DNA of 52,222 nt, filler included, from Catajapyx aquilonaris (Eukaryota): NCBI GenBank assembly GCA_000934665.2. It is 2 parts of 2 records of this genome, joined end to end, with 100 filler letters (N's around TTAATTAATTAA, not from the genome) between each part and the next. Parts side by side here need not be neighbours in the genome. Positions count along the whole stretch, not along the records: positions 1 to 25,967 come from JYFJ02005278.1; 1 more part is not named here. The stretch is one strand, 5' to 3'. Below, in pieces: positions 2,121 to 51,063 of the stretch; position 1 is the stretch's first letter, and each line of letters starts with the position of its first letter. A model generated the notes under the pieces. That model worked only from the letters and a program-made list of their open reading frames with translations, was not told the origin of the DNA and ran no database searches. The position numbers and the translations under genes were made by a program.

Positions 2121-2366
2121 CTAGTCCAGACTGCCTCCAAGGTGTCCATTGGTCACAACCCCATTACTGCTACCACCATTGACCACATGTCCATTCTGGT
2201 GCAGGCCACCATTGGCATCACCATTGGTGGTAGTACCATTGCTAATGGTGCTCCCATTGGACATCCCAGCTGCGGAGGTGCGGTGGCGGATTGTGCCATT
2301 TGCGATCTTTGTGGCTTCGTGGATCTTGCCGTTGGTGCCATTTGCTGTCTTTTTGCCAGTATCGAT
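2121..2366 (-). CDS. ELOVL: Gene A terminal coding exon (IDTGKKTANGTNG...NGHLGGSLD*), Asn-Gly-rich tail
   Basis: Pyrimidine-rich acceptor ending CCAG, phase 0, 81 codons plus TAG; the NG-rich tail parallels the terminal exon of gene B. Confidence 0.85.
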   Translation of the reverse strand: MDTGKKTANGTNGKIHEATKIANGTIRHRTSAAGMSNGSTISNGTTTNGDANGGLHQNGHVVNGGSSNGVVTNGHLGGSLD

Positions 2367-5300
2367 CTGGTAGCATCATCAAGTTGAAAAGGCAGAGAAA
2401 ATTGGAGAACAAGAAAGAAAAAAACACATTAGATTCATTGGAATTGACAACTGGCAGTGTCATAAGGGGGGGAAAATTTTAATTTCCCATCACAACATAG
2501 CTTGTAAACCCAAGGTCTTATCATATTACCAATTCCATTAAAATAAATGTGCGATGTGAAGTGATTATGTCACACCATGTTGATAGTAAACTCAGCACTG
2601 TAACCATAACATGTGGTGTGCCACTCAGTTTTTTCTTTAAATTTTGGATGAGGAAGAAAAACCTGCTGGCCTCTTGTTGCTAACATGTAATGGTCAAAAC
2701 TGCTAGAGTCTTGCCAGAGACTTGCCACCTCCTAACTATGCAGATACTAAAGCAAACATAATTTTAGAGGTACTCGTAAAATAGGCCATACTGGCTTAAC
2801 TTTCGGGTGGAAATGTTTCCTGGGTTTGGAGGAAGTCATTTATGAAAAATCTGAGAGGTCAAGGTCAACCTAAATCTCTTGCAGGATTTTATTGCTTCTG
2901 CAATAGGCAAAAAAAAAAAAAGCTTGAGACCACTAAAAATTTATGGCCTTCTTTGATGCAATATTTTGTGGTTAGATATGCATGTTTCTTTCCTTTCTGT
3001 TAGTAGAAAAGTGAAAAAATCTACCCAGAAACCACATTACAGTCAAGTTTTGGTAACAATTTCTTTTTCACCATTGTCACGCAAATATGTAATGTCTGTT
3101 CTATTATGGTTAAAAATTCTGTGGATGTACTATGCATGGTGTAACAGTAGATGTTAACAAAAGGCTTGTTTTGGGTAGCAGCCAATGGTGATAATTTCAA
3201 AGATTGTATGAGTATGCGACATATCATTGGCATGCAAGTGAAACTAACTCAGTCCAATATTGGCAATAATCATTTTTAGTTATGTACCCCACTTGTAAGT
3301 AGAATACATGTCCAAGCCCCTAAGGTGGAAGCTAATGATCTTAATGGCATTTGCATTATTTTCATTGCTATCGGGCAGTGTCTTTGTCACAGCTGAACGC
3401 CTAGTAACCCAGATTTATAGAGCGTCCCCTGCAGTTGACACCTCAGCGATTACAAAATCAGACTTTAGAATTTAAACATATTAATACTGTAATCCTTGGA
3501 CACTTGTATAGAAGTTAGACATTCAGTTATTGTTAGTTTGTCATTTGCGCATAAGTAGAATAAAATTTTTAAAAATTAAACAAAAAATAATTCAGTCATA
3601 TCTGGGTTAAAGGGACACTCCACTCAAAAAACAAGTTTGACTCTAAAAATCGGGCAAAAAATCCTGAATCTCTGGGTGCAATTCGTTTTTCGCTACGCGG
3701 AACAGTAATCCCAGGGCGAGGTGTCAAAATGTGCCGTCTGCTAATGAGCGGCGCGGGGAACAGGGGAACTGGAGGGCTGCACCACTCTGGGATGGGCCTA
3801 AGCGCGCAGGCAGGCGGGAGCAGCCCTCCAGTTCCCAAGGTCCCGAGGGCGTCACTGGCGGAAGGCCACCTTCTAGTGCACTATTTGAATTTCCCCACTT
3901 TGACCCCTCGCCCTGGGATTACTGTTCCGCATAGCGAAAAACGGATTGCACCTTCGGATTCAGGATTTTTTGCCCGATTTTTAGAGCCAAACTTGTTTTT
4001 TGAGTGGAGTATCCCTTTAAGGATGGACATCCCAAAATTAGTTCATGCTCAAATGCAGAAAACATTAACAACAAAAAGAACTTGAATGAGGGAGAAAGTC
4101 TCCAGCAGATGCCAATTTTTCTTGGAGCAGGCCTACACCACTCGTAAGTAATAATCTGACTTCACCAAAAAGAAACACACCTGGTTGACACAAAAGCCCT
4201 TCCAGCCCAATGCACAAAAATACACACAAAATAAGGATAAGGGCTATTTAGAGGTGGGTCCTGGCGCTCGATATTTACCTCATATATGTCCGGGGAAGTA
4301 TTAAAACAGAGCAGTCTTGAGATAATCCGAATTGCCGATCTTATGGTCCCTCCCTAAAAGAACAATCATTTTAATAGAGTGGGACACAATGTCAAGTTTG
4401 TGCAGCAATTTCCTCAGTATTATTCTTTCATGTCAGGGCAGATAAAATTTTCTCATGCTCTACATTTTCCCAGTTGTTGAATCTTCCCAAACTACTCCAG
4501 AGCCAGCACCACCATAACTGAACAAGAATTACCAAGAACAAAATATTATAAACAAACAAAAAGTACAAGTGAAGGTCATGCATATCAGAAGCCAGCCTCA
4601 TATGAAAAGATTACAGACAACTGAGACAAGTGCTCAAATAACGGAAAAGGTGAATGTGCAAGTTATTGACATTTCATCAAGCACATTTATGGCACTCTTA
4701 ATAATTGTATTATCCCATCCCCATTACTATCACACACCCACTTTGTCAGCACAAATATGAGCAAAAAGCACCCATCTACTTTGCAAGATCTTAAAATTGA
4801 TAAACAGTAGATATGCCCAATTTGTTCCCTACAATAAGATAATTTCATGTGCTTTTCTAAGCAATAACCCTGTCATGAGCTGGACCATGCAATAAGCACA
4901 ATGACCCGAGTTTTCTCCAACGCCAGTATTTATGATTCTTTGGGCTCCCCTGCTCCAGATGCAGATCCAAAATAATACCACGAGTGCAACAGTAGCCCAG
5001 TTTTTCTAAAGTGCCCTATTTCCAACCCACTAACATGTGTTGCAAACACATGATAACTTTCACTCCCCCACACACTCATATCAAAAGTCCTATATCCATT
5101 CACTCACACATGCTCTGCTTATTATTATGGTGAGAATCAATCAAAGAGCCATTTCCCATCCAATCCCCTGTGAACCAATTAATCCATTTGTTCCCTACCC
5201 CACATATGCTGCAGGGTAAATGAACCAAAATAAAACTGACACACTTGAAGGTGGGCAATAACAGTGCAAATGCTGATGGCAGGCACAGTTGTTCCCATAG

Positions 5301-8300
5301 AAAGGGAACCCCTCCAATTAAAACCATCCAGATCACCCATCCTTTCTCTGCAAACATGTGTACAGGTTGGAGCAAATCGCCTCACCTTTTTGGGCCTCCT
5401 GTAGTAGGCTTTCCTGTAAAAGTCCAAGAAAAGGACAAGGAAAAGGAGGGCATGACCTCCAATCCACCACACAAATCCACGAGGATAGTTGCACTCAACG
5501 AACAGCAGTTGGAATGCGTGAGTTATGATGCACACAAACTGGACCTGCAATCATTGGATAGACAAATTTCATGTTAACTCTGAACATAAGTGCCTTTCAT
5601 AAAATCACAATAATAATAAAAGCTAACCATCTGAAAAGTTGTGAGGTATCGCTTCCACCAGAGGTACTTGTGATATCTTGGCCCCATAGCTGCCATCATG
5701 TAGTACAAGTACATGACGACATGTACGAACGTGTTCAGTAAGCCAAAGAAAGTGCTGTGGCCGCCTGTTGGAAGAATTCATTTCAATCGCTGCATTAATA
5801 AGTTCCACCCCATATACACTCTCCACCCTCACACAAGACTCACCAGGGGTGAATTTAACTCCAAACCATACACTCATAGGCATGATGCCATGGTGGATGA
5901 CGTGCAGATGTGACACGTGTTGGAACTTTTTCCGCATGGTGAAAAAGAACTGAAAGGGTGTGGGATTATGATTACATCTGCACCTGATTAATTCCTTATC
6001 GTGGCTTAATTGGAGCTGGTATTCTCACCGTGTCGAAGAACTCTGTGAACTTGGAGAAGTAGTACCACCAGCATGCATGGACCATCTGAAATTGACCACA
6101 GTGCAAGTGCTTTGCCCTTGTTTTCTTCGACCAGAATTATACACCTTGCCAATTACATGCTAAAACTTGATTACATGATGCTACTAGATAGGGCACACAA
6201 CAACATTCATGCATGACTTCAATTGTTCACCATTACAACTAGCTTCCAGGGCACATAAAGCCTTATCTAAACAAAGGGAACAGCAAAGTTCATATCTTCC
6301 AATAAATTCTCTATTTTCAAGATTTACAACCATTTTAACCAATTGTTAGATTTCTATGCCTGCCTGGAATGTGTGATGTCTTGAGATTCTGACATCATGC
6401 CAGGAAGCAGTCATACATGGTCACATGTAAACACTCTTATCTGTAAGCAGTAGATGCTGCGGAAAGTCTAAAGTCTCTACCAATAATGAACAAATTAACA
6501 AATCAAGAGAAAAGTACTAATGTCATGCAAAATGGTTCCTGTGAAGCTTGCACTAAACTTCCTTGATAAATCCTGTTCTGAAAGCTGGACAAACTTCTGC
6601 CAAGCACTGGGCATACTTGCTCTACGACAGCCAGCTTAATATGCTTGTCAACACAGGAACCTGACACACATACTCACTCCTACCTAATGCACTAGACTAC
6701 ATATAACACTGTTAGTACGAGCGATTCGGGGCAACCATTCCAACTGTGATTCTAACAGGAAGTGTCTCTTGTAACTATCAATGCTTCAATTTGCATTAGA
6801 AAAAAAAGGCAGCATGCAAGCCTCAGGAACTAGGGGACTGAGACGCAACCTGCCGGAATCCCGGTTCTTTTCCTGCCCTGTACCATTTTTGTGAGAGCAG
6901 CAGCGACTCACCCTCAGCGATAGGGGATGGTTTGAATAGTCGATTGGCTGGCAACGCAAACTATAGCTTGTCAACCACCCTGACATCAATAACTGAAAAC
7001 AAACCATGCTTATCGTCATCACCGACTTTTCATAAAACATGCCAAAACTGGCTTATTCTTCACAACGGAGGTAGGGCCATAGGTGGAAAGAAGGTGACAA
7101 ATATTGTGTGCAGTGAGCACGACACTTCACATTTTCACAGACACATATACACCCATGGCAAGGTTAAGTACAGAAGTAGAAGAGGTATACAGCTACAAAG
7201 GTTAAGCCGAGTTAAGCCTAAAGCAATAACATCCAAAATCACTTCCTTGTCTACCCAAGCAGTGAAGTTACTAACATGGAACCTCAGAGCTTCACTTTGG
7301 TTCCACCATTGCCAGGCCACTGAACAAACTTGGCCTTAAATTATCACATCTTTCAAAACTTGTACTATTAGGTCAGGTCCACAAAACAACCCCATGCTCA
7401 AGGTGCACGTTGAATATTGCAAATTATAATTGTAATTGTTAGGAACATGCAACAATGCTCATCCAGAAGCATCCTCCAACATTGATTTGGTCCACATAGG
7501 AGGCTAACCATAACCATTGTTCCACATCTCCCCTTCAAAGTTCACATTCTTTTATTACCTTGTGCTTAAGTTCCACCTTTAGAGTAATTAAATCACATTT
7601 TCCATCCGCACGAACCATAAAAATCAAAACACATTCCCACCCATGAGTACTAACAGAGGTCCATTTGTAACCGCATCGTTCAAGGGCTACACAGTAATGT
7701 TATGCCTGATACAACAGCTGCAAATGCTTGCAACTGCATGTAACATATCTGCTAATTCTATGGTTAAATGCCCACTCTTGGAACATCCTGATCACATGCC
7801 CATGCACCACCAGAGTATATATGATGGCATGCTCCCATCTTTTTCAGCGTTGTCGTGTCACAACCTACCAAAACTGGACTATCCACTGATGCAATGACAA
7901 CATCTGCAGGATGCACCTAAATTCATATTACGTGTCATGCAAAAGATTCACTTGTTTCGTCATGAGTAAATTGAGTTTTCATTAATTCAGTGTTACAGAT
8001 TTAATTACTTACCCACTTTATTCACTTGAGCACTCCATTTTAATGATATTTGTCATTTTTCATCATGACCCACATTAATTGTGGCTGTTAAAAGTACAAT
8101 CAAGGAATGAACCGATCCTTCTTTAAGATGTGGCGTATCCAATATGCAAAAACCAAAGTCAATAAAATTCAGCTAATTCCACCAAGCAGGCTGGGAAAAT
8201 TCAGAATTTACTGTAGCAAGTGTAAAATGATCCAAAGTGCTTCACAAAGCTAAAAGAAGTTTCCACATAAAGACAATCATAGAAGCTTTCACATGACATG

Positions 8301-11300
8301 TGATATGAATTTTAATTCACATCCAGTGAAGACTCAGTACTAAAAAAAATAGCTTTCACCTTCACTACCATTCGGAACTGCCTCATACAGACTTGTTGTG
8401 AGTCTGGATTCCTGGCTTGAAAGTTGCACAATGTCAAATCTTCCCACCAAAAACAAGGTCAGACACATTAGCCCATGAGAACAGAGAAGTCAAGAAGAGA
8501 CAGTCTGAGGAAGTTGGAAGGAGTCATCCCCAACAAAGTGGAGGTAACTAACCAACACACACTTGCATGTCTCACTATTTTGAGTGCAGAGTCATGCTGC
8601 AGACAGTGTGACGAGCATCTTGATGAGCTGTCCTCCAGTAATCAAGTCTCACAATGGTCCACAATTACAAGTAAATGAGGAAGTTGATAAATATGTTGCC
8701 AAATAAGTAAACAAATATTAAAATAAAAATTATTCAAACTGAAAATTGGCAGATGTCCTGTACATATGTTTAGGCGTAATATGTTGCTGAGGTACCACAT
8801 ATATATTTTAAATAGTAATCACATATTGCTTCACCTTTCCTATGTAAATGCTGTACATGGAAGATCTCTGGCAGCAAACTGAAAGTCATACCAACCACAT
8901 GATGCAAAGTTCTGATCTGTGAAGAAAACTTCAGGTTCCTATATCACCGTAGCACACGAGTGTTCAGTGATCGTCAAATAGTTCCATTGTCCTCTTAATT
9001 GCACTGATTATTATCTCTATGCCTTATTTTCTGACATTTTCAAAACTTAAATGCAATTAATCATTTTAATTAATTGTTAACATTACAACAATATTAAATA
9101 AAAATTTAGCATGTTCATGTATCAATTAGCATTTGTTCCATATTACTTATTATTATTACGTAATGTAGGTCCGTTGTCACACATACACAAAACACTGGAC
9201 TTTCGAGTATTTGATAGGATACTACTAACTCACAAGTGCAATTCTGTACCACATTATTGTCACTTACCCCACCATTGGTGCCCCAACATCACTCTGCATT
9301 CCTACTTTGAAGTAAGAAATCCATTCATCCAGGGGACAAATAAAATGACCCAGTTCATGATTCCCTTGGTCTTTCACTCACATGTCCTGCACTGAGCAAG
9401 CAAATTTCTAAATTGCAAGTGCTCCCCACTTTCAGTAGTCAGTGTCTATGAAATTTTGCAATATGCTGAAAACTTTTCTAGGAACATAGTTGGTATGACC
9501 TTCAGTATGTTGGCCCCATTATTGTCTCCTGAGACTCCACTTACACGAGGGTAAAATATGATGTTACCCATTCCCTTACACCATTAACAATTCCAACCCA
9601 ACCAGCACCAATCACTCTGTCATATGTGCAACCAACCACTCACTGATCATGATTTTATAAATATATGCTATATATTTGCATGGTGGACATTGCTGAGGTG
9701 CTCCAAAACAAAAATGGCACGGAGGATCTCCCCAAAATGATTGCTGTACATGGTGGATCAACCTCTCCATTTGTAAGTTTCCCAACCTCTTTTTTTTGTA
9801 CAACAGGAGAGTGAAGTTGAGGTGAGTGGAAAAGGATATAAAGGACAGAGCTAAGATAAGAAGTTGATCCTCCAGATATTTGCTGCTAAATTCTGGAAAT
9901 TCATGCGGGAAGGTCCCAGCCACTCACCCTAATTGCCATGTCCGAATTGGAATAGTCAACTGGTTGACATACAAATGAGTACCCGTGAAACCAGCCTCCT
10001 CGACCATACTGCAAGCAGATGATACAGTTTAAACAAGGTGCTTACTTGTTTGGAAATCCCATAGCATAACATGACACTTGAGTATATGAGATGTGCAGCT
10101 GGTTTTTGAATGATGGTGAACTCCAATCTCAAATCGACAATGGCCAAATTATAGAAATTTCTCTTTTTGTTACTGTATCCACTGAATTTGGGCAGGTCAT
10201 TAGGCCATTGCTCATGACTACTTAAACAGTGGCCTCTGGATTTGTTAAAGCAGTAAATCCTTTCAGGTGCACAAGTCATTATTGTTAGTGTCATATTGAC
10301 AATGGTGTTAAGAAAAGTAAGCGTAACCTGCAGTCAAGAGCAATGTGGTATAGCTGTCACACAGCAATGAATTGCTTAACGACTGCTGGTGGTTGAGAAA
10401 GAAACTTAACCTGCCGATGCTACAGGGAGAAAATAAAAAGGGAGGCTGTAAAAAGAAACACCAGGATATGAATGGTAGTCATCTGACTTCAAGAGTAAAA
10501 GGCGTGAAGGTGAAGTACTGTACATATGTAAATAAGCTTAACTACATGTGAAAGAAATGAAAAGAGATGAAACGTTTCTGCATGTACCCAACAACTCAAC
10601 AACCTCGTGGGAGACTCAAGAGATACCTGAGGTCAGTCATTTTTAAATGGTGCAGTGCATGTGTCACGATGTAACCACCTTTACTGCTACGTATGACATT
10701 TAACATAAGAAGCACACGTAACATCAATGTGACAATCCCAAGCAAACACTCTTTGTGACTACAACCAAATGTGAACAGAGACAAGGAGTGGAAAAAAACA
10801 CCAGAAGTTCTACAGAATGAAGTCAACAGTGTTTAGAAGAAGAGAATATCTTAATCATTAATCTCTCAATACTTGTGTTATGTTGTCCACCCTTGTGAAC
10901 TGCAAATGAACAAGTACTACATCCCAAGGTCATCAGGGGTGGAAGTCACATTCACAAGCAGCCAGTAACCCAGGTACTATTTTTCATAATTTTCCCCACT
11001 TCACCTCTATTGGCTGTGAATATTCTGCTGCCATTATTATGTGTTCCGGCCTTTTAGTAATTTCCCCATGGGTTTCTAATGAGATAGTATTGCGCCAATA
11101 TGTTGTATGTCCAGGGCACAAATCATATTGTGGCAGGCATGCTCCATAATTGCAAGAAATAAATTGGGTTTCAAGAACAGGTGTGAAACAAAATTCTGCA
11201 ACATTCTCCTATGCATTAATTGAAAAACTAAACTATTGGAGTGTCAGGACAAGGTTTCACATCCCATTTTACCTGACAACTACCTGAGGATCATAACAGC

Positions 11301-14300
11301 GGTGCCCAGATAAAATGGGACAATGCAGAAAACCCTGAATTTTCATACTACAATGGAATGAATAGGTCACGGAGAAGTGTGATTATTATAAGTCATAACC
11401 CATATGACCAAAGTTACGAGCTGGGGGACTCACCAAGTCATGGCTCCTGTGATTGTGACCTTAACAAAATGACAGGAGTTGAGGAAGGGGAGGGAAGTGG
11501 AAGAGATAGTAATCAGATCAAAGTGGCCTGCCAATACACTAAAATCACAATAAACATAGCCATATCTCTGCCACATCAAATCTTGCTCTTTTTTTTTCTT
11601 TTGGCTCTGCAAAGTCACACCCCCAAAAAAGAGCACAAGTTGCTTCAACATAGCATGGGAAACAGAAGGATTGGTTTCATAGAGAGACAGCTGCCATGCA
11701 AATGTTAGTAATAATGTTTCAACAGAGATGGATGTTGTGGGCATGAAACAAGTGCAAATGATTGGAATCTGGGATAAGGAGCAAAGGTGCACATAGAAAT
11801 TGTCAAATTCACAAAAATTCATCCTATCACTCATCATCATCCGCAAAAAGAGAAAAGCAAGAAATCTGCAACAATGCAATCAGAGCTCTGTGAAGCTCAG
11901 AACATACTGATATGAAAGAGCAAATAAAAATTCTATAATTCAGGCAAAAACATTGCATTCTGCAGTAATTTATCATTAGATTGCATTTTTATATAGCTGA
12001 CATTGACTTCAGTGTCAATTAACACAAATTGACTTATTTAAAATTAACAAAGAATCTAGTAGATTGAAAGATATGTCAGGAATATATATCAATTGATATT
12101 AAAATAATGGACTTGCCTCATAGAACAGCCAGGCACTGAAGATGACTTGAGCGAAGTTGTAAAAGACGAGGAAGTTGCGCATTTCAATAGGTGGGCGGTT
12201 CTTCATCAGCCGTGGGCCTACGACTTTCACTGTGTACACGTAACTTAAACATATGGCCATCGTGGGCCATGGGGAGTCCATGAACAGCCATCCATCCACA
12301 CGTGGATCTGACAATGAAACAGCATCACAGAACCATTCAACCAATCAGTATCATTCTACCCTGTTAGAGGTCCCCTATTTGTTGAGTCCACTGTGGCTGT
12401 GTGACCCACCATGGTACACTTAAATCGGTTAGCCCAATTCATCAACACATTAAATGCAGATTTTGACATTTTACTTAGTTCCACATGGGATTTATGTCCT
12501 AAGGGGTTGCACTGACACAAATCCCTAACAGGAAACCCTCTATGGGCTGGTTGCACCACTTGAAGCAGAAGAGTTTCCCTGTTACCAATTGTTCGCAACA
12601 AATATCCTGAATTACCTAACAAGTATGAACTCTTCGGGAAGGAGAACGGAACTCAATTATACAGCACATCCAACAAGCATAATTTTTTCCTCGTTATTAA
12701 TTTTTTTCTTTTGTGGGCAACTATTAGCAAGTAAGAGAAGCCTATGGTTATTGATACATTTATGACAGTTCTCCCCAACCCTGCAAATGATATGCAGAAC
12801 TATTCAATGATAACAGTAAAGGGACTTGTATGCAAAATGGATGTACTATTTGCATAACTGCTCTCGTCCAGTCATTTACACTTATACCACCACCATTTGT
12901 GTGAGAGCAACCTGGAAGTGTTGATGACTTGGTTACTTGGTGCAATACTTCAAACTCACAAGAGCCTATTGCAAGCAAGAGCAAGCCTTTGTGCATGATA
13001 TACAGTATGCTCATAAAGAATGGTATGACTTTATGGACGAAATGCTTATCCTGTTCCCAACCCCTCAGTCGCCAGCATGTTTTTTAGGGTATTGGGAAAG
13101 GCCGGGAAAAGGGAATAAAAACAAGGAAAAAGAGAGTAAAAGAAAAATGGCAAAGAATGAAAATTTCATGAGGGAAATTCATCTTAACTCTATGTAAGGT
13201 TGGGAACCACTGCTGGACAGTCAAGATACACATTTAGCCATAGAGTTATACCATTCTTGATGAGTAGTACTCTACACTACAGCTGGTCCATGAGCTGGTC
13301 CAACAAGTCACACAGATATGTGTGATATTACAACACTGCAGCCCTAAATGGGTGCATCAGGCCTGTACATTTCTTCCTTGAGGGAAGAGGATCACGTGAA
13401 GGTCACCCTTTACCACCATAGCCAACCAAACAGGTAATTTCATAAGCTTCCCTCAACCAACAGGGCAGAAAAAGACATGTGCATTGTATAACGTTTACTA
13501 TCAGGTAAATGAAAAATCCTAAATCAGTGTCCCTGAGCCACTGGACCAGCTATGCAGTCACTGCCATAGCTGCCCCCCATAGATATTAATAAAAGGCTTT
13601 AATAAAGCCTTTAATATCCATGCTGCCCCCATGAAGTATGTAACACATATACCAGAATGGGGAAGAGTTTTGATTTATTAACAGCTATTCTCATGTAGCT
13701 GAAAAATCAGCAGATTCTAACACAAATGCGCTGTGAATAACAAGTTAAATGCATGACATTCGCTATTTTCCAGAGGCACTTTGTATTCATTCTATCTTCA
13801 TGCAAAGTGACATTTCCTCCACATAGTATTTTCCATTTATAACTTATTTGGACACTATACAGCCTGTCCTAAAATGATTAATTTCTCAAAAAGATTGTGC
13901 CTAGCTTAATAAACTGTTTCACATACTGGAAAACTCAACAAGCAATATCAAAGAATAATACAAAGGGTCCCACTCCCAGGTGATTGTTATCATTACTCAT
14001 CATTACATGCAATCATATTTCATCAGGGAGCATTGGAGCCTACTCAAGAATGTGTGACTACACGATAATGAGTACACCTGATTATGTAAAGGCAACCCCT
14101 TGAATAAATGCACAACAAGTCAAAAAGCAATCTGTCAATGTTGTAGGGGTTTGACTAGTTTAGCGGGATGGGGTAGCGAAGGTTGATCACCTTGCTCCTT
14201 GACTTATCAGTTAAGTCATTCTGCTCATTCTATTGAGTTATCAGTTCCTTCTCTCTGGCTCGTGGCCCTTGCAGTGTTAGCTCATGAATCTGTTACAGTT

Positions 14301-15046
14301 GTTTTCTCTCACATTAGGGCTCCAAGACCCTACTTAATTAGTTCTTGTGGATGGGGCTACTCAAAAAAAGATGCATGTTGCCTGCTACTGACAGTGAGGT
14401 GACATCCTTCACATGTTGAAGAATTGGAAACAAGCTTCCAAGAAAATAAAATACAATGGCAAGCAATGTAATAAAATCACCAACAATGACAATGGTGGAA
14501 CAGGACCATGGCCACATGAGTAATATGGGTGGTGTTCATTCAGAAATCTGACAGTATCTTATTAACATACCATGAGTATCTTTATTGCTTGTTCACCACT
14601 TGCATTTCTGCTGAGCAGCATAAACCACTGCAAAGATATCACTCTCGTCATCTAATGCTTTTTCATTTAGCAGTTTCCCTCAGGAGCATGCATACTGATA
14701 TACATTGATAACATTGCTTTTCAGTCAAGGGAGCCGAGTCAGAGCAAACATAGCGCATTCCATAAGAGGTCCTTATGACTGGTTATATGGACAGAAAATA
14801 AAGAATGAGCTGGATTTCTTTTCCTAGATATCAATCATGCAACTGACCCATAGCTAGTAAAGGTACAGGTGGACCCAATTCATAACTTCATCAGCCACCC
14901 CATTAGGGCAGTACATTGTGGAATCAAGGTAACAAGTCCCTGTTAAATATTTTTAAGAAGGAAATGCCCTCACCTCGCCTGTTCACGAGAATTTCATTGT
15001 ATCCATCAACTATGCTCCTGATAACTGAAGTCATGTTCGCAGTCAT
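2121..15046 (-). CDS. ELOVL: Gene A: fatty acid elongase, ELOVL1/7-like (AAEL008004-type), multi-exon, 349 aa
   Basis: Spliced exons 15046-14974, 12307-12117, [10008-9928 or 6992-6912], 6085-6029, 5949-5844, 5764-5628, 5544-5386, 2366-2121 give 1050 nt in one open frame. Motifs: SKFTEFFDT (KxxExxDT), LHVIHH (HxxHH), NTFVHVVMYLYY, KYLWWKRYLTTFQ. Confidence 0.95.
3611..4016. mobile_element. MITE with ~120-bp TIRs and TTAA target duplication (Kolobok-like termini)
   Basis: TTAA|AGGGACACTCCACTCAAAAAACAAGTTTG...CAAACTTGTTTTTTGAGTGGAGTATCCCT|TTAA. Purine (AG) start with TTAA fits Kolobok rather than piggyBac (CC start). Confidence 0.85.
4279..4353 (-). CDS. Gene A candidate cassette exon (GGTIRSAIRIISRLLCFNTSPDIYE), 75 nt
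   Basis: GTTCTTTTAG acceptor, GAG|GTAAAT donor, phase 0/0, open frame matching exons 7 and 8; CpGs retained in an otherwise depleted intron. No homology evidence. Confidence 0.45.
5386..5544 (-). CDS. ELOVL: Gene A exon 7 (VQFVCIITHAFQLLFVECNYP...FYRKAYYRRPKK), 159 nt
   Basis: AG/GT flanks; same length as exon 7 of gene B. Confidence 0.95.
5628..5764 (-). CDS. ELOVL: Gene A exon 6 (GHSTFFGLLNTFVHVVMYLYY...KYLWWKRYLTTFQM), 137 nt
   Basis: AG/GT flanks; NxxxHxxMYxYY and TxxQ motifs. Confidence 0.95.
5844..5949 (-). CDS. ELOVL: Gene A exon 5 (FFFTMRKKFQHVSHLHVIHHGIMPMSVWFGVKFTP/G), 106 nt
   Basis: AG/GT flanks; catalytic HxxHH box. Confidence 0.95.
6029..6085 (-). CDS. ELOVL: Gene A exon 4 (MVHACWWYYFSKFTEFFDT), 57 nt
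   Basis: AG/GT flanks; KxxExxDT motif. Confidence 0.95.
6912..6992 (-). CDS. ELOVL: Gene A alternative exon 3b ([27 protein letters not shown]), 81 nt
   Basis: TTTCAG acceptor, AGG|GTGAGT donor, phase 0/0; same motif as exon 3a. Confidence 0.92.
9928..10008 (-). CDS. ELOVL: Gene A alternative exon 3a (YGRGGWFHGYSFVCQPVDYSNSDMAIR), 81 nt
   Basis: TTGCAG acceptor, AGG|GTGAGT donor, phase 0/0, 27 codons without a stop; carries the GW-x3-YS-x2-CQP-x-DYSN motif homologous to exon 3 of all three genes. Confidence 0.9.
12117..12307 (-). CDS. ELOVL: Gene A exon 2 (DPRVDGWLFMDSPWPT...FSAWLFYE), 191 nt
   Basis: Same length as exon 2 of genes B and C; ends GAG|GCAAGT (GC donor). Confidence 0.95.
13578..13622. 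mobile_element. 45-bp palindromic insertion with 8-bp TSD (P-element-like ends or footprint)
   Basis: CTGCCCCC|CATAGATATTAA...TTAATATCCATG|CTGCCCCC. Confidence 0.75.
14974..15046 (-). CDS. ELOVL: Gene A coding exon 1 (MTANMTSVIRSIVDGYNEILVNRR/D)
   Basis: ATG at 15046 (second in-frame ATG at 15034); phase-1 donor G|GTGAGG; upstream acceptor TTCCAG at 15097-15098 implies a 5'UTR intron. Confidence 0.85.
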
Positions 15047-15964: not shown

Positions 15965-16059
15965 ATTACCACCTTCCAAAAGTTAGTACCCTTAGCTTTC
16001 AAAGTTTTTAAAAGTATTGTACATTTCACAAAACTCAACATGGTCATATGATTAGAAAA

Positions 16060-16320
16060 GGGCAGCACAAGCAGAGATCTTGAATGGCACAAGGCTCTGA
16101 GGCCCAAAAATTCAATACCTGGGTTGGACAGTGGAATTTATCATGCGGAAAGAGTTTCAATGTTCTCCCTATGTTCACAAGGGTTTTTTCTGGGTTCTCC
16201 CATTCCTTCCCACAATCAAAATCCATCAACAGCACAGTCAATGAATCAAGTCTGGCTATGTGAAAGCGGATCCTCTAAGAGGCCAGTCTTATCTTGTGGG
16301 TTACCCAATTAATTATTAAT
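16060..16320 (+). mobile_element. Decayed SINE with V-domain-like central region
   Basis: 16152-16227 (GAGTTTCAATGTTCTCCCTATGTTCACAAGGGTTTTTTCTGGGTTCTCCCATTCCTTCCCACAATCAAAA) resembles the V-SINE core as recalled from memory, with CpG decay; boundaries approximate. Confidence 0.5.
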
Positions 16321-16364
16321 TAGTCGCATGATCTTCAGCTGTCACAGCAAGCAAATGGCACGTC

Positions 16365-16391
16365 CATAGATATTAAAGAGCAATATCTATG
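16365..16391. mobile_element. 27-bp palindromic insertion with diverged 8-bp TSD (same ends as the 13578 element)
   Basis: GGCACGTC|CATAGATATTAAAGAGCAATATCTATG|GGAATGTC; TSD copies match 6/8. Confidence 0.65.
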
Positions 16392-17424
16392 GGAATGTCC
16401 ATCAAGACATTTTTAGAACTTGGGTATGTACAGCATTTTCGAAGTCTACGCAGAGCACTTTGGTTTCTCCTCTCTTTAATTAGTAATTTGTCCTACCCTT
16501 TCGCCTTTCTCCATGTACCTTAAACCTGGCCACCTTTTTTAGTACCTTAAAGGTTGCACTGTACATACTAGACAGTAGATATTTTGCAAGAGGTTCATGC
16601 TGTCATGCCTATAGGACTGATTATACCCCAGAAAATCTGGAAAATCACAGCTGCAAAACAGTCCAACAAAATGCACTGGCATTTTCCCAGCAATACAAAC
16701 TGCCACATGGCGTGACTGGCATCAGGTACAGACTGCCATTTGACTGACAAATTACTAAGTCAACTTTCAAAAATTCATGTTCAGCCTGAATTCAAATGTT
16801 GCAGTGTCATAAGTGTTAATTTAATCAGCACAATCCTGGACCTGGCATGGGCATTCATCTTTTCATATTGCCTACGATTCTTAATCCCAATGGCAATTTT
16901 TATGTCCACTATGAAGTGTGCAATAGTTCTGGTATGCAACTAGTCGTAAATCATGTACACCGATATTGAACTGGGTAGTAACAGCTTTTCTGTACATGCT
17001 ATCACCTGAACCTGCAGTGATCATCATTGCACCTTATCCTACATGACACCAGGGTTGTTTTGCAACTCTTCAAATTTGCACCCACCAAAATATTTAATTT
17101 CACACATTTACAGGGGTGGCACACTGCCCAAATCTCCAAGAGTGCGGTACACGGTTAACCCCAGCAACCTGTTGGAAGCCCCACTCAGGTCTGCACCGCC
17201 TAAGAACAGCTGTTGTGACTGTAGGGCAGTGTAGTGCACCTCCCTAGCACATACAGTCAATGAGGAAAGATACGGGCAGCCAGTCCAATAATTAGTAGCA
17301 GACATTCGTGCCACTAATAAGAGCCACCCGTTTTCCAGCAAACGTCAGCACCACGCTTGCATCCTGTCTGCCGGATCAAGGCTATCCACCCACCCGTGCA
17401 ATGCAGCTTATGACCACACCGTAC

Positions 17425-18070
17425 CTGTTCTATATCCTGGGGGTATGAGAGCCGGCTCGGATCAAGTGAGGGCGGGGGTGGGGTACAACAGAGCACACCA
17501 CCACTCTCACACACACACACGGAGTCAGCACGGCCGGTACAGCGTAGGGCACCGCATGGCACACTCCTCACTGGGGGGGGTACGGCACCGCGGGGTTGGG
17601 CAGACAGACAGACACACCGGCGAGGGAGCGAATAAGGGACGAAGGGAGGAAAAGGCGGCCGCCGAATGATATAACCTGGGCAGCAGCACACCGCGCCCAA
17701 CAAGCCGCCCGGAAGAACAAGGCCTGCCAACCTAACCAACCGAACGCCACACCCCAACCCCAACCCAGACTGGCCAACTTCTGCCCGGGTCTGTCTGCCC
17801 CGGGTCTGTGACTCTGGAGAGGGGGGATGACAAGGGAGCAGCCGGCAGGGTTGGGTAGAAGACTGGGGGAGAGGAGGAAAAAGGGCTGCCAGGGGGTCTG
17901 GCTGGCTGTCGTCGGGGTGGGGAGAAATGGGGGGAGGTACCAACCCTTGCAGCACATCCGCCCACGCTTCCCTCCCCGGGGCGGTTGCGCGGACAGACCC
18001 GCAGCTGCACCCACAGACACTACCCGGCACACTTTTTTAAGGCTGGACACACGTATCCGGCGGTACGTGG
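17425..18070 (-). promoter_or_regulatory. Candidate promoter and non-coding first exon of gene A (GC/CpG-rich; exon about 17667-17425)
   Basis: Abrupt GC/CpG-rich island; Inr-like TCATTC on the minus strand at 17669-17664; donor CAG|GTACGG at 17425; short uORF MRCPTLYRPC* at 17557-17525. Confidence 0.5.
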
Positions 18071-28189: not shown

Positions 28190-28238
28190 ATGATGATGAT
28201 GATGATGATGATGGCGGTGGTAGTGGTGATGGTGATGG
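28190..28238. repeat. (GAT)n/(GGT)n low-complexity tract
   Basis: ATGATGATG...GTGGTGATGGTGATGGT; explains the poly-Met and poly-His ORFs. Confidence 0.85.
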
Positions 28239-29339: not shown

Positions 29340-32300
29340 GTAAACTATTTTTTTTTCTTACTTTGAATAAATTGTGATTGTTAACTTACAACAATATCAC
29401 ACCCTGATAGTCAAGTGTACAATATTTAAAAAATATTAACTGCTATCCCACACTTGATGCACAATATTATATGACATTGAGACCTGTCATAGTCATAAAA
29501 AATGAACTGATTGTTCTATAACGGTAGCGGAACTGATTTTGTTGAAAATTGATTTTGACATTTCGATGACAATGTCAATAATTGACATTCTCAGACCCTT
29601 TTCCATCAGAACCCTTCAATTACAATAGTACACCTGGTTGTCGATATATATCGCGCTAGAAGTGAACATCCTATTGGAATTGAGGAGCGAAAAAGCATTT
29701 GGAGGGTCACCGCTACGAAACGGAATTTATCGCGGTTCAGCGATTTGAATGTTTCTCGTATTATTTTTTAAAAGCAAGTGTACTGTACATCTTGGATCAC
29801 TCGTTATCCGTTAGTTGTGGAATAAGTTACTGTAACAACTTCGGAGGAATCTTCCTTCCTCTGACAGCAAAACCTCATTTTCACTGATGAAAACGGAGGA
29901 ATGCTGGAGATATATGAGATTATTTCTCTGGGTTTTCACATGATGCTATCGTTTTGGTGTAGGATCCGCTTCCTACTGCAATTATGCACAACCTTTAGTC
30001 GGGCTTGGCGCCTATTGAAGAACAATGACGTCATAAGATAGGCTCGTTTTAAAAATGAATTGAAATTTATCTCACCTTCATGCGCTTACATTCCCACGTT
30101 GATGGCAAAACATGTGGAATATTAACTATGTTATTGATGAGACCACTATTGTCATAGTGTATCCTTCGAGATGCAGAGGAGTGTTTCCGGGTTTAGGCGT
30201 TTTCCTTGGCGAATCTTGTCACATAAAAGTCGGCAGCTTAGAGATCACGAGTATGATGGAATCACCAATCACGGAAGTTATTGCCACGGTCGAATTGCCG
30301 GCTTGAGGTAGGTTGGAACCATAACGCGATTCAAGCGTACAAGTAGGACAACATTCCTAATAAATTAGAATTTCGTGCAGTTTACTCAGGATTTTTCGTT
30401 CGTAGGACTAAGTGCTGGCCACGCGATGTTGGTTATTTTTTAAAAAATGTAACATATTAAACTGTTTCAGATCCCCGGGTGGAAAACTGGCCACTCATGG
30501 ACGGCCCTGGTAACACCATCCTCATTGTGGTGGCTTACATCTACTTCGTCAAGTCTCTGGGACCCAGGTTGATGAAAGAGCGAAAGCCCTTCAACCTCAA
30601 GAATGTCCTGATAGTCTACAATGCCATACAGGCCATTTCTAGTTTCTGGTTATTCACTGAGGTAAAAACTACAATCTGAAAACTATAATCTTTGAATTAT
30701 TTTGAGTGATTCTCAATCTTTCTCCTCGTAAATAAAATCCGATATTTTAAACTGATTCAATGGCTATGTTATGCGAATTTGGCCAAAATATTTATTCACC
30801 ATTGGAGAAATATCTTGAACCAATATTTCAGGAGTAAATTGAGAGAAAAGGCAGTTGATATTTCAAATGATGTAAAAGTATACTCAAACTAATTTACTGA
30901 GAATAAATATTTCGTACCGGTACTCTAGTAATAATAGACTTCTTTTCCATTTCAGTGCATCCGAGCAGGATGGTTTTGGGAGTACAGTTTTCGCTGCCAG
31001 CCAATTGACCGATCATACAACCCACGTGCTTTGCGAGTAAGTTGCACTTGACACAAATTTCACTCACATATGATTCACTAATTCGCACAACTCTCTCTTT
31101 ATTTCTCTCTCTCCTCATCTAGACAGCAAGCGGATGCTGGTGGTTCTTAATCACCAAATTCATGGACCTGTTAGACACTGTTAGTACTCAGTAGTTAATG
31201 ACTATACTTATTAGTGATTACGAGTGGATCTCATTATCTCTTGATTTTTTCTAAGGTGTTCTTCGTCCTGCGCAAGAGATTCGAGCACATCAGTCTTCTG
31301 CATGTCTTCCACCACGCCGTCATGCCGTTTGGTATATGGTATGGCGTCAAGTTTGTGCCAGGTAACTGCCGTCAAGGAGAGGGTGGGGTGGAGGGCAAAG
31401 GCCCGTCACCCAAAACCACAAGTTTTCTACTTTTTGCCCTGACATCATTTCCCATTTTTTCGGTCTTTTCACATGGCAGGTGGTCACGGCACTTTCTGCG
31501 GATTGCTCAACACGTTCATTCATGCTGTGATGTACACCTACTACCTCCTGGCCGCCCTGGGTCCGGAATACAAAAAGTACTTGTGGTGGAAGAAGTACCT
31601 CACTATCATGCAAATGGTAAAGATTAGCCGACCGTGTCGATATAGCGTGCAATGACTATAACGATAATGGCAATGAAAAAATTGTAATATTTGCAGGCGC
31701 AGTTCCTGATGGGTACGATCCATGCAGGACAGCTGTTCTTCATTGATTGCGACTTTCCAAAGTTCTATGCCTGGTGGAGCCTGGTGTTAGGACCAGTTTT
31801 CTTCAGCCTCTTCTATGACTTCTACATCAAGGAGTACATGATGAAAAAAGTCAAGGTAACATAACCATGGCCAGAAGCCCTCTCTCATGGGTTTTTCTTA
31901 TACCAAGGATAGTGTCAAAGGTGGTTCAACCCTACGAAGGCTTACTTGGAATTACGTTTTTTATATACACATCTCAATGTAATGACGTCTGTTTCCACTG
32001 GGGTCAAGCAGACTCATTTTGCAAGTTGTTGACATTGAAAAGATTCGGGAGAGGCCGAAGGTTCCGTCGGCAACTAGCTTTAAACCAAGCCATGGCAAGG
32101 ACCTCAAGGTTGCTGGGTGAAACCCGTCTGCAAAAAAATAAGTTTTTTATTCTTTTATTTTACGGTCTTGCCATTTATTTAAACTCTTGGTAAATGTCGT
32201 GGGGGTCAGGCATTCAGCGTGGTCACGTAGCGTGGCATCGATAACATCATACGTATGAGAACTCGGTCATCAAGATGTTTTCGCGGGTATTTCGTCGTTT

Positions 32301-49199: not shown

Positions 49200-51063
49200 A
49201 TGGAAGGGAGGGCGAATATAACGTTACCAAATTTTGTGAAGCAGCAGTACGACTACATTTTCCACTATGACCTCGGTATGTATTGAAAGCATTTACGTGA
49301 GAGAAAACTTTAAAAAGGGAATAGAAATCGGGGTACTAATTTCGCAACTGTCCACTTTCAGATAAAAGGATAATAGACTGGCCTCTCATGTCTTCGCCAT
49401 ATCCACCCTTCCTCATATCTTTCGTGTATGTAATATTCTGCCTCTGGATAGGACCGCAATATATGCTGTACAGAAAACCATTCCGGTTGAAAAAGATTCT
49501 TCTGGTGTACAATGCTTTCCAAGTAGCGTTTAGCACATGGATTTTTACTATGGTAAGTTTGCAAAATGATTTTTTTGTGATATTTTACGTTTTCTTAAAA
49601 GTATATGCTTACACTGTTGTTGTTTTCTAGGGAATTCGTGGCGGCTGGTTTACTGGATACAGCTTTAGTTGTCAACCGCTGGATAAATCTAACAGTCCCC
49701 AGGCAGTTATGGTAATAATATACGAGCATTTTGTGATCAATCTGCAATATAAGTAGAAGTGGGGTAAGTGCATACACGGGGTAAGTGCATACACGGGGCC
49801 GCCATATTGGAATGAAAATGGCTGACGACACCAAAACATGTCAGGCACACTTTTGTGTAGCTGCACATCACATCCCCACAAGAGGTGAGCATGTCAGCCA
49901 TTTTCATTCCAATATGGCGGCCAGTTTATGCACTTACCCCGTGTATGCACTTACCCCACTTCACCTTATTGCAAGATCAGGCTGACCCACATTTTGTGTA
50001 AGCAAGGAAATTACCTCTAAAGTTAAATAGATGGAAAAACACATTTACTGCACAAATGCATATGTATTGCTACAAAATTCCTTCATATTTTGGCTCATGT
50101 CTGAAGAATTTGCTGCACATATTGAAGATCATGAATAAGAAAAATTATCAAACGTCTGCTTTTTGGGTCAGCCCATTGTTGAAAAAAACCCCTTCAATAT
50201 GAATTGCCAGTTTTATCAACACAAATTAAGGAGGAAATGTGCTATTTTATGCATGGAAAAACACGTGTATATTATTAGCATTAGGGCCAGGGCCTACCAA
50301 AGAGTTCTCTAATTTTTCTCTAATTCTAGTTCTTTCAATGTAGAAAATTCAAAATTTATTTATAGAAAAATTTTAGGCTGCAAAATGAGTGAATCACATG
50401 AAGTCTAAATTAAAGTCTAATTTTCAGCATTTTAGTAGATACAAGTAGTTATACTAATGTTATAGAACCCATCAGTTGAAAATAACACATAGTACTAAAT
50501 AACTAATGCAATAGATATGACTGACAGTGTTATTAATTCCCATTTTTTTGTTATTTCTTTCTGAACAGATGGTGCATATGGCATGGTGGTACTTCATCTC
50601 CAAATTCGTGGACTTTTTTGACTCAGTGTGTATAGAAATCAAAGTTGTATAGTGTGCATGTGTGTCTCGACCTCAAACATGTTTCCTGCTAACGACGCCA
50701 CGCTTATTCCCCCTCAGGTGGCTTTTGTACTGAGGAAGAAGTATGACCAGTTGACTTTCCTGCACATGGGTCACCACTCCGGGATGCCTTTCGCCTGCTG
50801 GTACGGGATTCGCTTCATGCCCGGTGGGTAATACAGCTCGAGATATGAGTGAACTTGTTTCTGGACAAGTCGGTTGGGTGCTGATATGCTGATATCAAGC
50901 ATAAAATATGTTTTCTTTCGTACCAGGCGGCCATGTGACCTTCATCGCTTTGCTCAACTCCTTGGTTCACACGGTCATGTACACTTACTATTTCCTAGCA
51001 GGCTTGGGACCCTCGGTGCAAAAATACCTGTGGTGGAAAAAGTATCTCACAATCTTTCAAATG
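49200..51063 (+). CDS. ELOVL: Gene C: fatty acid elongase, ELOVL1/7-like, 3'-incomplete in this window
   Basis: Exons 49200-49275, 49362-49552, 49631-49711, 50569-50625, 50718-50823, 50927-51063 in one open frame, all GT-AG. Motifs: SKFVDFFDS, LHMGHH, NSLVHTVMYTYY, KYLWWKKYLTIFQ. Exon 7 was not found before the window end. Confidence 0.93.
49756..49962. mobile_element. ~210-bp hairpin MITE with tandem 17-bp subterminal repeats in intron 3 of gene C
   Basis: GAAGT(GGGGTAAGTGCATACAC)x2 ... GGCCGCCATATTGGAATGAAAATGGCTGAC, with an inverted copy of both parts on the right arm. Confidence 0.85.

What the first reader, a model, noticed from the sequence alone, without database searches (positions are those of the whole stretch)
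6912..10008. Hidden duplicated exon 3: a putative mutually exclusive exon pair in elongase gene A
Seen: two homologous 81-nt phase-0/0 exons lie between exons 2 and 4, each with a CAG acceptor and an AGG|GTGAGT donor. Exon 3a (10008-9928) encodes YGRGGWFHGYSFVCQPVDYSNSDMAIR and is invisible in the ORF track. Exon 3b (6992-6912) encodes [27 protein letters not shown]. They share only 12/27 residues yet both keep the GW..YS..CQP.DYSN motif, so both look maintained by selection. Genes B and C have one such exon each. Established: this exon encodes the end of TM2 and the first luminal loop, including the conserved Cys that is disulfide-bonded in the human ELOVL7 structure. Inference: one gene makes two elongases with different luminal loops, possibly differing in substrate, chain length or tissue. 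Including both exons keeps the frame but duplicates the loop, so an active exclusion mechanism is expected. I cannot tell from here whether this pair is already annotated in related species.
Basis: partly seen in the sequence, partly recalled or inferred. Interest (0 to 1): 0.85.

Follow-up and report, generated by a model that had tools for sequence, protein, structure and literature searches.

The report
Conserved alternative exon pair in elongase
A crustacean-type fatty-acid elongase gene carries two interchangeable copies of one small exon, an arrangement that is real but is already present in the public gene models of water fleas, crabs and insects.

Summary
Gene A (minus strand) has two 81-nt, phase-0 exons, 3a (10008-9928) and 3b (6992-6912). 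Both have AG acceptors and AGG|GTGAGT donors. They share 12 of 27 residues and lie between exon 2 (ends 12117) and exon 4 (starts 6085). A profile search finds only four such segments in the window: these two, plus one each in genes B and C.

The pair is not new. Orthologues ("AAEL008004-like", Elovl1/7-like elongases) carry alternative exon-3 variants at the same position:
- Three Daphnia species each have three equal-length RefSeq isoforms. One variant matches 3a in 24 of 27 residues.
- Crabs, porcelain crabs and a spiny lobster have two variants.
- Many insects have two variants.

Unnamed spliced transcripts join a 3a-type exon directly to exons 2 and 4, so 3a is not a decaying copy.

In this species, spliced contigs confirm the other exon junctions. 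No contig was laid on 3a or 3b, so their use here is inferred.

Exclusivity is not absolute in relatives. Models with both exons, or with neither, are annotated in crabs and insects. I found no exclusion mechanism. A functional difference between the isoforms is untested.

Verdict: a new member of a known, annotated kind. None of my ten paper searches found a description of it.

The parts
14974..15046 (-). First coding exon of gene A. ATG at 15046; encodes MTANMTSVIRSIVDGYNEILVNRR plus one base of the next codon. The transcript contig reaches 15098, where an AG precedes it, so a 5'UTR exon probably lies further upstream.
   Evidence: Spliced contig joint 14974|12307; sequence and translation; tblastn.
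12117..12307 (-). Coding exon 2 (191 nt). Matches Pfam ELO profile positions 2-56. Its donor is GC (GAG|GCAAGT at 12116-12111).
9928..10008 (-). Exon 3a, 81 nt, phase 0/0. It is the 'YGRGGW' variant. It is 24 of 27 identical to the variant in Daphnia isoforms and 25 of 27 identical to one in an unnamed spliced transcript.
6912..6992 (-). Exon 3b, 81 nt, phase 0/0. It is the 'LLMSGWLT' variant. Its closest counterpart among the exon peptides compared in register is the first variant of a Schistocerca model, at 20 of 27.
6029..6085 (-). Exon 4 (57 nt, MVHACWWYYFSKFTEFFDT), the common acceptor for either variant.
   Evidence: (joint 5949|6029).
5844..5949 (-). Exon 5, with the histidine box HVIHH (5890-5904).
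   Evidence: ELO profile 105-136.
5628..5764 (-). Exon 6.
   Evidence: ELO profile 139-182.
5386..5544 (-). Exon 7. It holds the second Cys (FVECNYP), which corresponds to the ELOVL7 C231 position.
   Evidence: ELO profile 183-240.
4279..4353 (-). Exon 8 (75 nt, 25 aa). It is present in the transcript contig. The crab orthologues show no counterpart in the local alignments.
2121..2366 (-). Coding part of the last exon: an Asn/Gly-rich tail and the stop codon. The 3'UTR runs on to the window start.
30956..31036 (+). The single exon-3 homologue of gene B (CIRAGWFWEYSFRCQPIDRSYNPRALR).
49631..49711 (+). The single exon-3 homologue of gene C (GIRGGWFTGYSFSCQPLDKSNSPQAVM).

Best explanation
Gene A is the orthologue of the pancrustacean 'AAEL008004-like' (Elovl1/7-like) very-long-chain fatty-acid elongase. 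Its exon 3 exists as a tandem-duplicated cluster of alternative exons, as in its relatives. The spliceosome joins exon 2 (weak GC donor) to either 3a or 3b and then to exon 4. This gives two 374-residue enzymes that differ only in 27 residues.

Those 27 residues form the luminal end of TM2, the TM2/3 loop with the disulphide cysteine, and the start of TM3. The residues needed for the fold and the disulphide are kept in both copies: G, W, YS, CQP, DYS and the final R. The remaining positions are specific to each variant. For the 3a type they are conserved across distant crustaceans, which argues for a variant-specific role.

Shown here: the anatomy, the homology, the orthology, and alternative use in relatives.
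Inferred: alternative use in this species.
Unknown: what the variants change (stability, partners or product spectrum) and what limits inclusion to one exon.
For: Anatomy
-. Either exon alone gives an open 374-aa frame.

Only one copy fits the domain
- Exon 2 covers ELO profile positions 2-56 and exons 5-7 cover 105-240.
- The 48-position gap between them matches one exon 3 (27 aa) plus exon 4 (19 aa).

Orthology
- Local blastp gives 57-61% identity over about 370 residues to crab, isopod and damselfly proteins.
- Exon 2 is 73-75% identical to crab proteins.

Alternative use in relatives
- Daphnia pulex, D. magna and a third Daphnia each have isoforms X1-X3 of equal length (335, 330 and 333 aa). 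Each isoform has exactly one of three variants.
- Portunus X2 and X3, Scylla paramamosain X1 and X2, and two Petrolisthes species have models with either variant.
- Deposited crab records carry different variants: Eriocheir ALE71936 against XP_050706065, and Scylla olivacea A0A0N7ZCK1 against QNV46824.
- 37 of 133 parsed orthologue proteins hold both copies in tandem, which shows the duplication in insects and decapods.

3a is expressed and conserved
- 10 of 15 hits to a profile of the two window ORFs hold a 3a-type exon. BLASTP identity to the first query ORF is 83-87%.
- Three of the ten are spliced to exon 2, and two of those also to exon 4.
- Seven look genomic, with Q before and VS after, which fits a CAG acceptor and a GTnAG donor.
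- In a tree, 3a sits in a clade with these and the Daphnia variant (support 100/99).

This species
- Spliced contigs of run X1 confirm the joints 14974|12307, 6029|5949, 5844|5764, 5628|5544, 5386|4353 and 4279|2366.
- Weak hint, inferred: the exon 4-9 contig carries 60 letters upstream of the 5949 joint, that is exon 4 plus 3. Only 58 fit the genome. That fits AGG, the suffix shared by 3a and 3b. It does not fit GAG (exon 2) or CAG (the intron).
Against: - No contig or joint touching 3a or 3b was obtained for this species, so use of either exon here is inferred from relatives.
- Exclusivity is not strict in public models. Portunus X1 (381 aa) holds both exons and X4 (327 aa) holds neither. 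Panulirus, Petrolisthes, Eriocheir and many insect models also hold both.
- Both inclusion and skipping keep the frame here (401 and 347 aa), so nonsense-mediated decay cannot police the choice.
- 3b has no close counterpart: at most 20 of 27 among the exon peptides compared in register (21 of 27 to one unnamed model in the tree's own alignment).
- A scan for competing RNA pairings gave nothing beyond chance.
- The acyl-pocket residues named for ELOVL7 (W158, G161, G170, F238, I242) are not in this exon. A substrate difference therefore has no direct support.
Confidence: 0.8

Rival explanations
1. The two exons are independent cassette exons rather than a mutually exclusive pair. All four combinations (3a, 3b, both, neither) are made in appreciable amounts. 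The double form is a longer luminal loop that the enzyme tolerates.
For: - Both-included and both-skipped models exist in RefSeq for Portunus (X1 381 aa, X4 327 aa).
- 37 of 133 parsed orthologue proteins hold both copies.
- Both ends of the exon-encoded segment lie on the luminal side, so a doubled segment need not flip the topology (inference).
- The frame stays open in all four forms.
- No exclusion mechanism was found.
Against: - All nine Daphnia RefSeq isoforms hold exactly one variant.
- The three unnamed spliced transcripts with a 3a-type exon show it alone between exon 2 and exon 4, or between exon 2 and the following intron.
- The ELO profile has room for one copy.
- Automated models can combine introns that are supported separately, so the double forms may be minor or artefactual. 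I could not check read support.
Confidence: 0.12
2. One of the two exons, 3a as the 'hidden' one or 3b as the less conserved one, is no longer used in this species and is a relic of the ancestral cluster.
For: - No contig of the one available run was laid on either exon.
- The number of variants differs between lineages (three in Daphnia, two elsewhere), so variants have been lost in evolution.
- 3b has no close counterpart among the peptides compared.
Against: - Both exons are open, of exact length, in phase and flanked by consensus splice sites.
- Both keep all 12 positions shared between them. These include the cysteine and the CQP.DYS motif.
- 3a is 24-25 of 27 identical to expressed exons of distant relatives. 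An unused copy would not have kept that.
Confidence: 0.07
3. The likeness of the two segments is chance, or 3a is a stray fragment of a dead elongase gene copy lying in the intron.
For: None found.
Against: - Profile E-values are 3.8e-16 and 4.1e-17, against E >= 1 for the next best segment.
- tblastn with the whole gene A protein finds no other elongase fragment near 3a.
- Orthologous variants are spliced in relatives.
Confidence: 0.01

Closest known systems
[quoted passage not shown] XP_046446996, XP_046446997, XP_046447001; XP_045025594, XP_032778068, XP_045025595)
   Same: - The gene family and the position are the same: between ...WLFYE and MV.ACWWYYFSKF....
- The variants are 27-aa alternatives with the same invariant G-W...YS..CQP.DYS...R frame.
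- One variant (YGRGGWFHGYSFVCQPVDYSLD[DE]MAVR) is the counterpart of window 3a, at 24 of 27 residues.
- Every isoform holds exactly one variant.
   Different: - Daphnia has three variants and the window gene has two.
- 3b is only 16 of 27 identical to either of the other two Daphnia variants.
- I could not see the genomic order of the Daphnia variants.
Decapod orthologues: Portunus trituberculatus isoforms X1-X4 (XP_045112147-153), Scylla paramamosain X1/X2, Eriocheir, Petrolisthes, Panulirus
   Same: - There are two 27-aa variants at the same position.
- Single-variant isoforms of both kinds are annotated, and deposited crab records carry both kinds.
   Different: - The two crab variants are 20 of 26 compared positions (aligned parts of the 27 residues) alike, against 12 of 27 here.
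- The variant nearest to 3a comes second in crabs and first here.
- Models with both or with neither are also annotated.
Insect orthologues ('AAEL008004' isoforms in Drosophila species, Bactrocera, bees, ants, moths, locust)
   Same: Two tandem variants sit at the same position. Single-variant and double models are both annotated.
   Different: - The insect variants are 27 and 28 aa: a [CS]LMGGW... type first, then an IG.SGWLTG.Y... type.
- No 3a-type variant was seen among the insect models examined.
Classical mutually exclusive exon clusters from tandem exon duplication (insect Dscam1, 14-3-3 zeta, myosin heavy chain)
   Same: Homologous neighbouring exons of equal length and phase substitute for each other.
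   Different: Those clusters have docking and selector RNA pairings or other known exclusion devices (my recollection; the titles and abstracts name such work). Here no pairing exceeds chance. The intron between the exons is 2935 nt, and double inclusion keeps the frame.
Human ELOVL7 (PDB 6Y7F)
   Same: - The fold family is the same: a crab orthologue aligns at E 1.4e-81.
- Exon 3 corresponds to residues 86-112, including C99 of the C99-C231 disulphide.
   Different: I did not examine whether vertebrate genes have alternative copies of this exon.

Membership tests
ELO / ELOVL fatty-acid elongases (Pfam PF01151) | Match to the ELO domain profile | tested here: met
   Exon 2 scores E 3.7e-13 (profile 2-56), exon 6 E 6.5e-14 (139-182) and exon 7 E 5.8e-08 (183-240). 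Exon 5 scores E 3.3e-05 (105-136), at 24 bits, which is below the 27-bit cut-off on its own. The 27-aa exon 3 peptides alone gave no hit at E <= 0.01.
ELO / ELOVL fatty-acid elongases (Pfam PF01151) | Histidine box HxxHH | tested here: met
   HVIHH at 5890-5904 on the minus strand, in exon 5. The ELOVL7 preprint names 147-HxxHH-151 as the conserved box.
ELO / ELOVL fatty-acid elongases (Pfam PF01151) | Cysteine pair linking the TM2/3 and TM6/7 luminal loops (C99-C231 in ELOVL7) | tested here: met
   Both 3a and 3b have the Cys at position 14, and exon 7 has ...FVECNYP.... In the crab orthologue these columns align with ELOVL7 C99 and C231. Formation of the bond cannot be tested here.
ELO / ELOVL fatty-acid elongases (Pfam PF01151) | Condensing (3-ketoacyl-CoA synthase) activity | not testable with these tools
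   Needs expression and fatty-acid profiling.
Pancrustacean 'AAEL008004-like' / Elovl1/7-like elongase orthologue group | Best full-length likeness to that group, including the Asn/Gly-rich C-terminal tail | tested here: met
   Local blastp gives 57-61% identity over about 370 residues to crab, isopod and odonate proteins named this way. Exon 2 is 73-75% identical to crab proteins. I did not test whether this group equals the gammarid 'Elovl1/7-like' of PMC8073319; I read only its abstract and some passages.
Mutually exclusive exon cluster made by tandem exon duplication | Neighbouring homologous exons of equal length and the same phase, each with its own splice sites | tested here: met
Mutually exclusive exon cluster made by tandem exon duplication | Exactly one of the exons is present in each mature transcript | tested here: inconclusive
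   This species: no joint to either exon was obtained. Relatives: 9 of 9 Daphnia isoforms hold one variant. However, double and skipped models are annotated in crabs and insects.
Mutually exclusive exon cluster made by tandem exon duplication | An exclusion device: steric hindrance, U2/U12 incompatibility, decay of the double form, or competing RNA pairings | tested here: inconclusive
   Steric hindrance is not met, because the intron between the exons is 2935 nt. Both exons have AG...GTGAGT sites and show no U12-type donor. The double form stays in frame at 401 aa. Shared-dock helices number 16, against a mean of 9.5 in 100 shuffles, and every shuffle has at least one.

The most novel reading that the evidence does not exclude
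The exon-3 cluster of this elongase is an ancient pancrustacean set of at least three substitutable variants. Lineages have kept, lost or re-duplicated them differently: three in Daphnia; two in insects; two in decapods; and, in this genome, a 3a type first and a locust-like type second.

The variants retune the luminal cap of the acyl tunnel, so that one gene yields elongases with different product ranges. If so, published assays of single cloned isoforms describe only part of the enzyme's repertoire.

Taken at face value, the order of types in the tree (insects A then B, decapods B then C, this genome C then A-like) cannot come from one three-exon ancestor. That would mean repeated re-invention of the same alternative exon.
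Probability: 0.25. Interest if true: 0.55.

Novelty: new member of a known kind. Interest (0 to 1): 0.3.

Why it matters
For annotating this genome, gene A should be given two coding isoforms of 374 residues. Predictors tend either to miss 3a or to chain both exons, as several public models of relatives do.

More broadly, this elongase group is studied in crustacean aquaculture and in insect hydrocarbon work, usually from a single cloned cDNA. The deposited crab sequences already differ in which variant they carry. Isoform identity could therefore confound comparisons of substrate range.

The cluster is also a clean, small case for studying how a membrane enzyme's luminal cap tolerates substitution. 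It is old, it has two to three variants, and double inclusion stays in frame.

Tried and rejected
RNA evidence in this species
- No RNA holder was listed. The one run found (X1, kind not on record, kept as contigs) proved to hold spliced contigs.
- No contig was laid on 3a or 3b. The tool states that a part without cover proves nothing.

Whole genome
- No genome is held for this window, so I could not search for further copies or relatives' genomic loci.

Earlier findings of this scan
- Three look-ups returned nothing.

Exclusion mechanism
- Inverted and direct repeats were listed across 6000-12200.
- Folds around both donors were unremarkable: z -1.09 for 3a and z +0.26 for 3b.
- A duplex scan and a helix count against 100 dinucleotide shuffles gave 16 shared-dock helices against a mean of 9.5, and every shuffle had at least one. 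Nothing exceeds chance. The candidate pairings are kept only as leads.

A third variant in gene A
- None was found.

Typing of the variants and their ancestral order
- The trees rest on 27 columns.
- 3a's clade is well supported. The placement of 3b is weaker (95/80, on a long branch).
- An AU test does not reject a decapod-specific duplication (p 0.19). The apparent conflict in exon order between lineages is therefore not established.

Literature
None turned up a paper describing alternative exons in an arthropod elongase.
- The 2013 Nat Commun paper on the Drosophila mutually exclusive exome is not held. Its gene lists may well include the fly orthologue.
- I did not identify the D. melanogaster orthologue.

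Pfam on the 27-aa peptives alone
- No hit; they are too short.


Full report
**1. Observation**

The two segments are exactly as described.
- Exon 3a (10008-9928, minus strand) translates to YGRGGWFHGYSFVCQPVDYSNSDMAIR.
- Exon 3b (6992-6912) translates to [27 protein letters not shown].
- Each is 81 nt, follows an AG and ends AGG|GTGAGT.
- They share 12 of 27 residues.

The likeness is not chance.
- tblastn of either peptide against the window finds the other at E 3.7e-07.
- A profile built from 102 distinct exon-3 peptides of relatives scores 3b at 4.1e-17 and 3a at 3.8e-16.
- The same profile scores one segment in gene B (30956-31036, +) at 3.9e-14 and one in gene C (49631-49711, +) at 3.9e-13. 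The next best hit in all six frames is E >= 1.
- tblastn with the whole gene A protein finds no other elongase fragment in the introns, so 3a is not part of a dead gene copy.

**2. Gene model**

One public run (X1; kind not on record, kept as contigs) holds spliced contigs of this very sequence. They give these joints:
- 14974|12307
- 6029|5949
- 5844|5764
- 5628|5544
- 5386|4353
- 4279|2366

All are GT-AG on the minus strand.

With the ATG at 15046, the gene encodes 374 residues with either exon 3. It encodes 401 residues with both and 347 with neither, and all four frames are open.

The donor of exon 2 is GC (GAG|GCAAGT).

Pfam ELO matches:
- exon 2 at profile positions 2-56
- exon 5 at 105-136
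- exon 6 at 139-182
- exon 7 at 183-240

The 48 positions between exon 2 and exon 5 are what one exon 3 (27 aa) plus exon 4 (19 aa) supply. Two copies would not fit. The histidine box HVIHH is in exon 5.

**3. What the exon encodes**

A crab orthologue aligns to human ELOVL7 (6Y7F) at E 1.4e-81. Exon 3 corresponds to residues 86-112, and its Cys aligns with C99.

I read passages and one section of the ELOVL7 preprint (10.1101/2020.11.11.378570). They state the following:
- The tunnel is closed at its luminal end by the TM4-5 loop.
- That loop is covered by the two disulphide-linked loops TM2-3 and TM6-7, joined by C99-C231.
- The acyl pocket is lined by W158, G161, G170, F238 and I242.

The residues named as lining the pocket are not in this exon, however. 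A substrate difference is possible but unsupported.

**4. Relatives**

A search with exon 2 found crab proteins at 73-75% identity. Their clusters hold several isoforms.
- Portunus trituberculatus X2 and X3 (354 aa each) differ only in this 27-residue segment (IGMSGWFTH... against FGMGGWFRG...).
- Portunus X1 (381 aa) has both segments and X4 (327 aa) has neither.
- Scylla paramamosain X1 and X2, two Petrolisthes species and Eriocheir show the same two variants.
- A Panulirus model has both.
- Deposited crab records carry different variants.

A search with the region around the doubled segment gave 936 hits, of which 120 were listed. At that point 152 proteins were stored, and I could parse the segment in 133 of them. 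The other 19 were fragments, the two window peptides, or models the pattern did not fit.
- 96 held one copy.
- 37 held two copies in tandem: 32 insect models of 27+28 aa and 5 decapod models of 27+27 aa.

Insects from flies to locusts therefore have the duplication as well.

**5. The counterpart of 3a**

A profile of the two window ORFs found 15 proteins. Ten of them hold a 3a-type exon (83-87% BLASTP identity to the first query ORF).
- Three are spliced to exon 2, and two of those also to exon 4.
- Seven read like genomic DNA, with Q before and VS after. That is what a CAG acceptor and a GTnAG donor translate to.

The clusters then showed that Daphnia pulex, D. magna and a third Daphnia each have RefSeq isoforms X1-X3 of equal length. 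Each isoform carries exactly one of three variants:
- IAMSGWANSYSYR...
- SLMGGWLFHYSLK...
- YGRGGWFHGYSFVCQPVDYSLD[DE]MAVR

The last is 24 of 27 identical to window 3a.

In a tree of the 27-residue segments, 3a sits with these at support 100/99. 3a is thus the best-conserved variant, not a decaying one.

3b has no close counterpart. Its nearest among the exon peptides compared in register is the first variant of a Schistocerca model, at 20 of 27 (support 95/80, on a long branch).

**6. Use in this species**

I could not show it.
- No RNA holder was listed and only one run was available.
- No contig was laid on either exon. The tool warns that this proves nothing.

One weak hint comes from the numbers.
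- The exon 1-2 contig covers exactly 12117-12307, and 124 nt of exon 1, and then stops.
- The exon 4-9 contig has 60 letters upstream of the 5949 joint, which is exon 4 (57 nt) plus three.
- Only 58 of those letters fit the genome.
- That is what AGG gives, the three letters shared by the ends of 3a and 3b. GAG (exon 2 joined directly) would give 59, and CAG (unspliced) would give 60.
- A graph assembler stops where paths diverge, and 3a and 3b diverge at the fourth letter.

This is an inference from one study's contigs, not a junction observation.

**7. Mechanism of choice**

- The intron between the exons is 2935 nt, so there is no steric block.
- Both exons have ordinary U2-type sites.
- Double inclusion stays in frame, so decay cannot remove it.
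- Short helices in which one site downstream of 3b pairs with sites upstream of each exon are no more frequent than in shuffles. There were 16 against a mean of 9.5, and every one of 100 shuffles had at least one.
- Folds around the donors are unremarkable.

Relatives also have annotated double and skipped forms. Exclusivity may therefore be leaky, or it may rest on factors I cannot see. My best account, about 80% likely, is that one variant at a time is the main product. I base this on the Daphnia models, the spliced transcripts and the domain length.

**8. Evolution**

Taken at face value, the types come in these orders:
- A then B in insects
- B then C in decapods
- C then an A-like type here

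This cannot derive from one three-exon ancestor. However, the data do not reject a decapod-specific duplication (AU p 0.19). That would remove the conflict. With 27 columns, the question stays open.

**9. Novelty**

The arrangement is present in RefSeq models of dozens of species. For this genome it is a new member of a known, annotated kind.

None of my ten full-text searches found a paper that describes it.
- The papers I opened on crab and gammarid elongases do not mention isoforms of this gene. For PMC11545969 I read passages only, and its splicing figure concerns elovl6. For PMC8073319 I read the abstract and passages.
- The Drosophila mutually exclusive exome paper of 2013 is not held. 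FlyBase was not available. Either may list the fly orthologue.

Noticed in passing
window 12111-12116 (-): The intron after exon 2 starts with GC (GAG|GCAAGT), a rare GC-AG intron. It sits directly upstream of the alternative exons. A relative's read-through ORF (P0007/P0034) translates as V-S here, which fits GT in that species.
   Followed up: partly
window 9917-9930 and 6901-6914: The donors of 3a and 3b are alike well into the intron (AGG|GTGAGTgGCTG against AGG|GTGAGTcGCTG). That is 13 of 14 positions, including intron positions +8 to +11 (direct repeat D12).
   Followed up: no
window 9821-9829 and 9921-9929 (-): A 9-bp perfect complement of the 3a donor (CCACUCACC against GGUGAGUGG) lies about 90 nt downstream in the intron. 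It could mask that donor. It appears in the centroid fold, but the fold is not unusual (z -1.09).
   Followed up: partly
window 6880-6892 with 9708-9720; 6291-6303 with 12063-12075: There are two 13-bp helices, each with one G-U. One joins sites just downstream of the 3b and 3a donors. The other joins sites near the exon 2 donor and upstream of exon 4. Counts of such helices do not exceed shuffles, so these are leads only.
   Followed up: partly
window 4279-4353 (-): A 75-nt exon (25 aa, GGTIRSAIRIISRLLCFNTSPDIYE) lies between the ELO domain and the Asn/Gly-rich tail. It is present in the transcript contig. The crab orthologues show no counterpart in the local alignments.
   Followed up: partly
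window about 3590-4090, both strands: This is an inverted, repeat-like element in the intron before the last exon. ORFs on both strands share ...GITVP.SEKRIAP.DSGFFARFLE.NLFFEWS.PL.... Many contigs with differing letters pile up here, and one joint links opposite strands (3637/3986). It is probably a transposable element.
   Followed up: no
window 15098 (-): The transcript contig piece that holds the start codon begins right after ...tttccag. The true first exon (5'UTR) therefore probably lies further upstream. G+C rises to 0.46-0.49 at 16001-20000.
   Followed up: no
window 30470-31855 (+) and 49361-51066 (+): Two further elongase genes (B and C) lie in the window. Gene A is on the minus strand and is oriented head-to-head with B. 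Each of B and C has a single exon-3 homologue. Gene C appears cut by the window end.
   Followed up: partly
window 28190-28237 (-); about 26050: One frame holds a histidine-run ORF (HHHHHYHRHHHHHHHH). A run of 89 N lies near 26050.
   Followed up: no
P0036 (Mytilus edulis model): A mussel elongase model repeats a 19-residue piece of this same exon (…LGCQPVDFSRSPQALRVSR…) about ten times. It looks like a tandem genomic repeat or a modelling artefact at the homologous exon.
   Followed up: no
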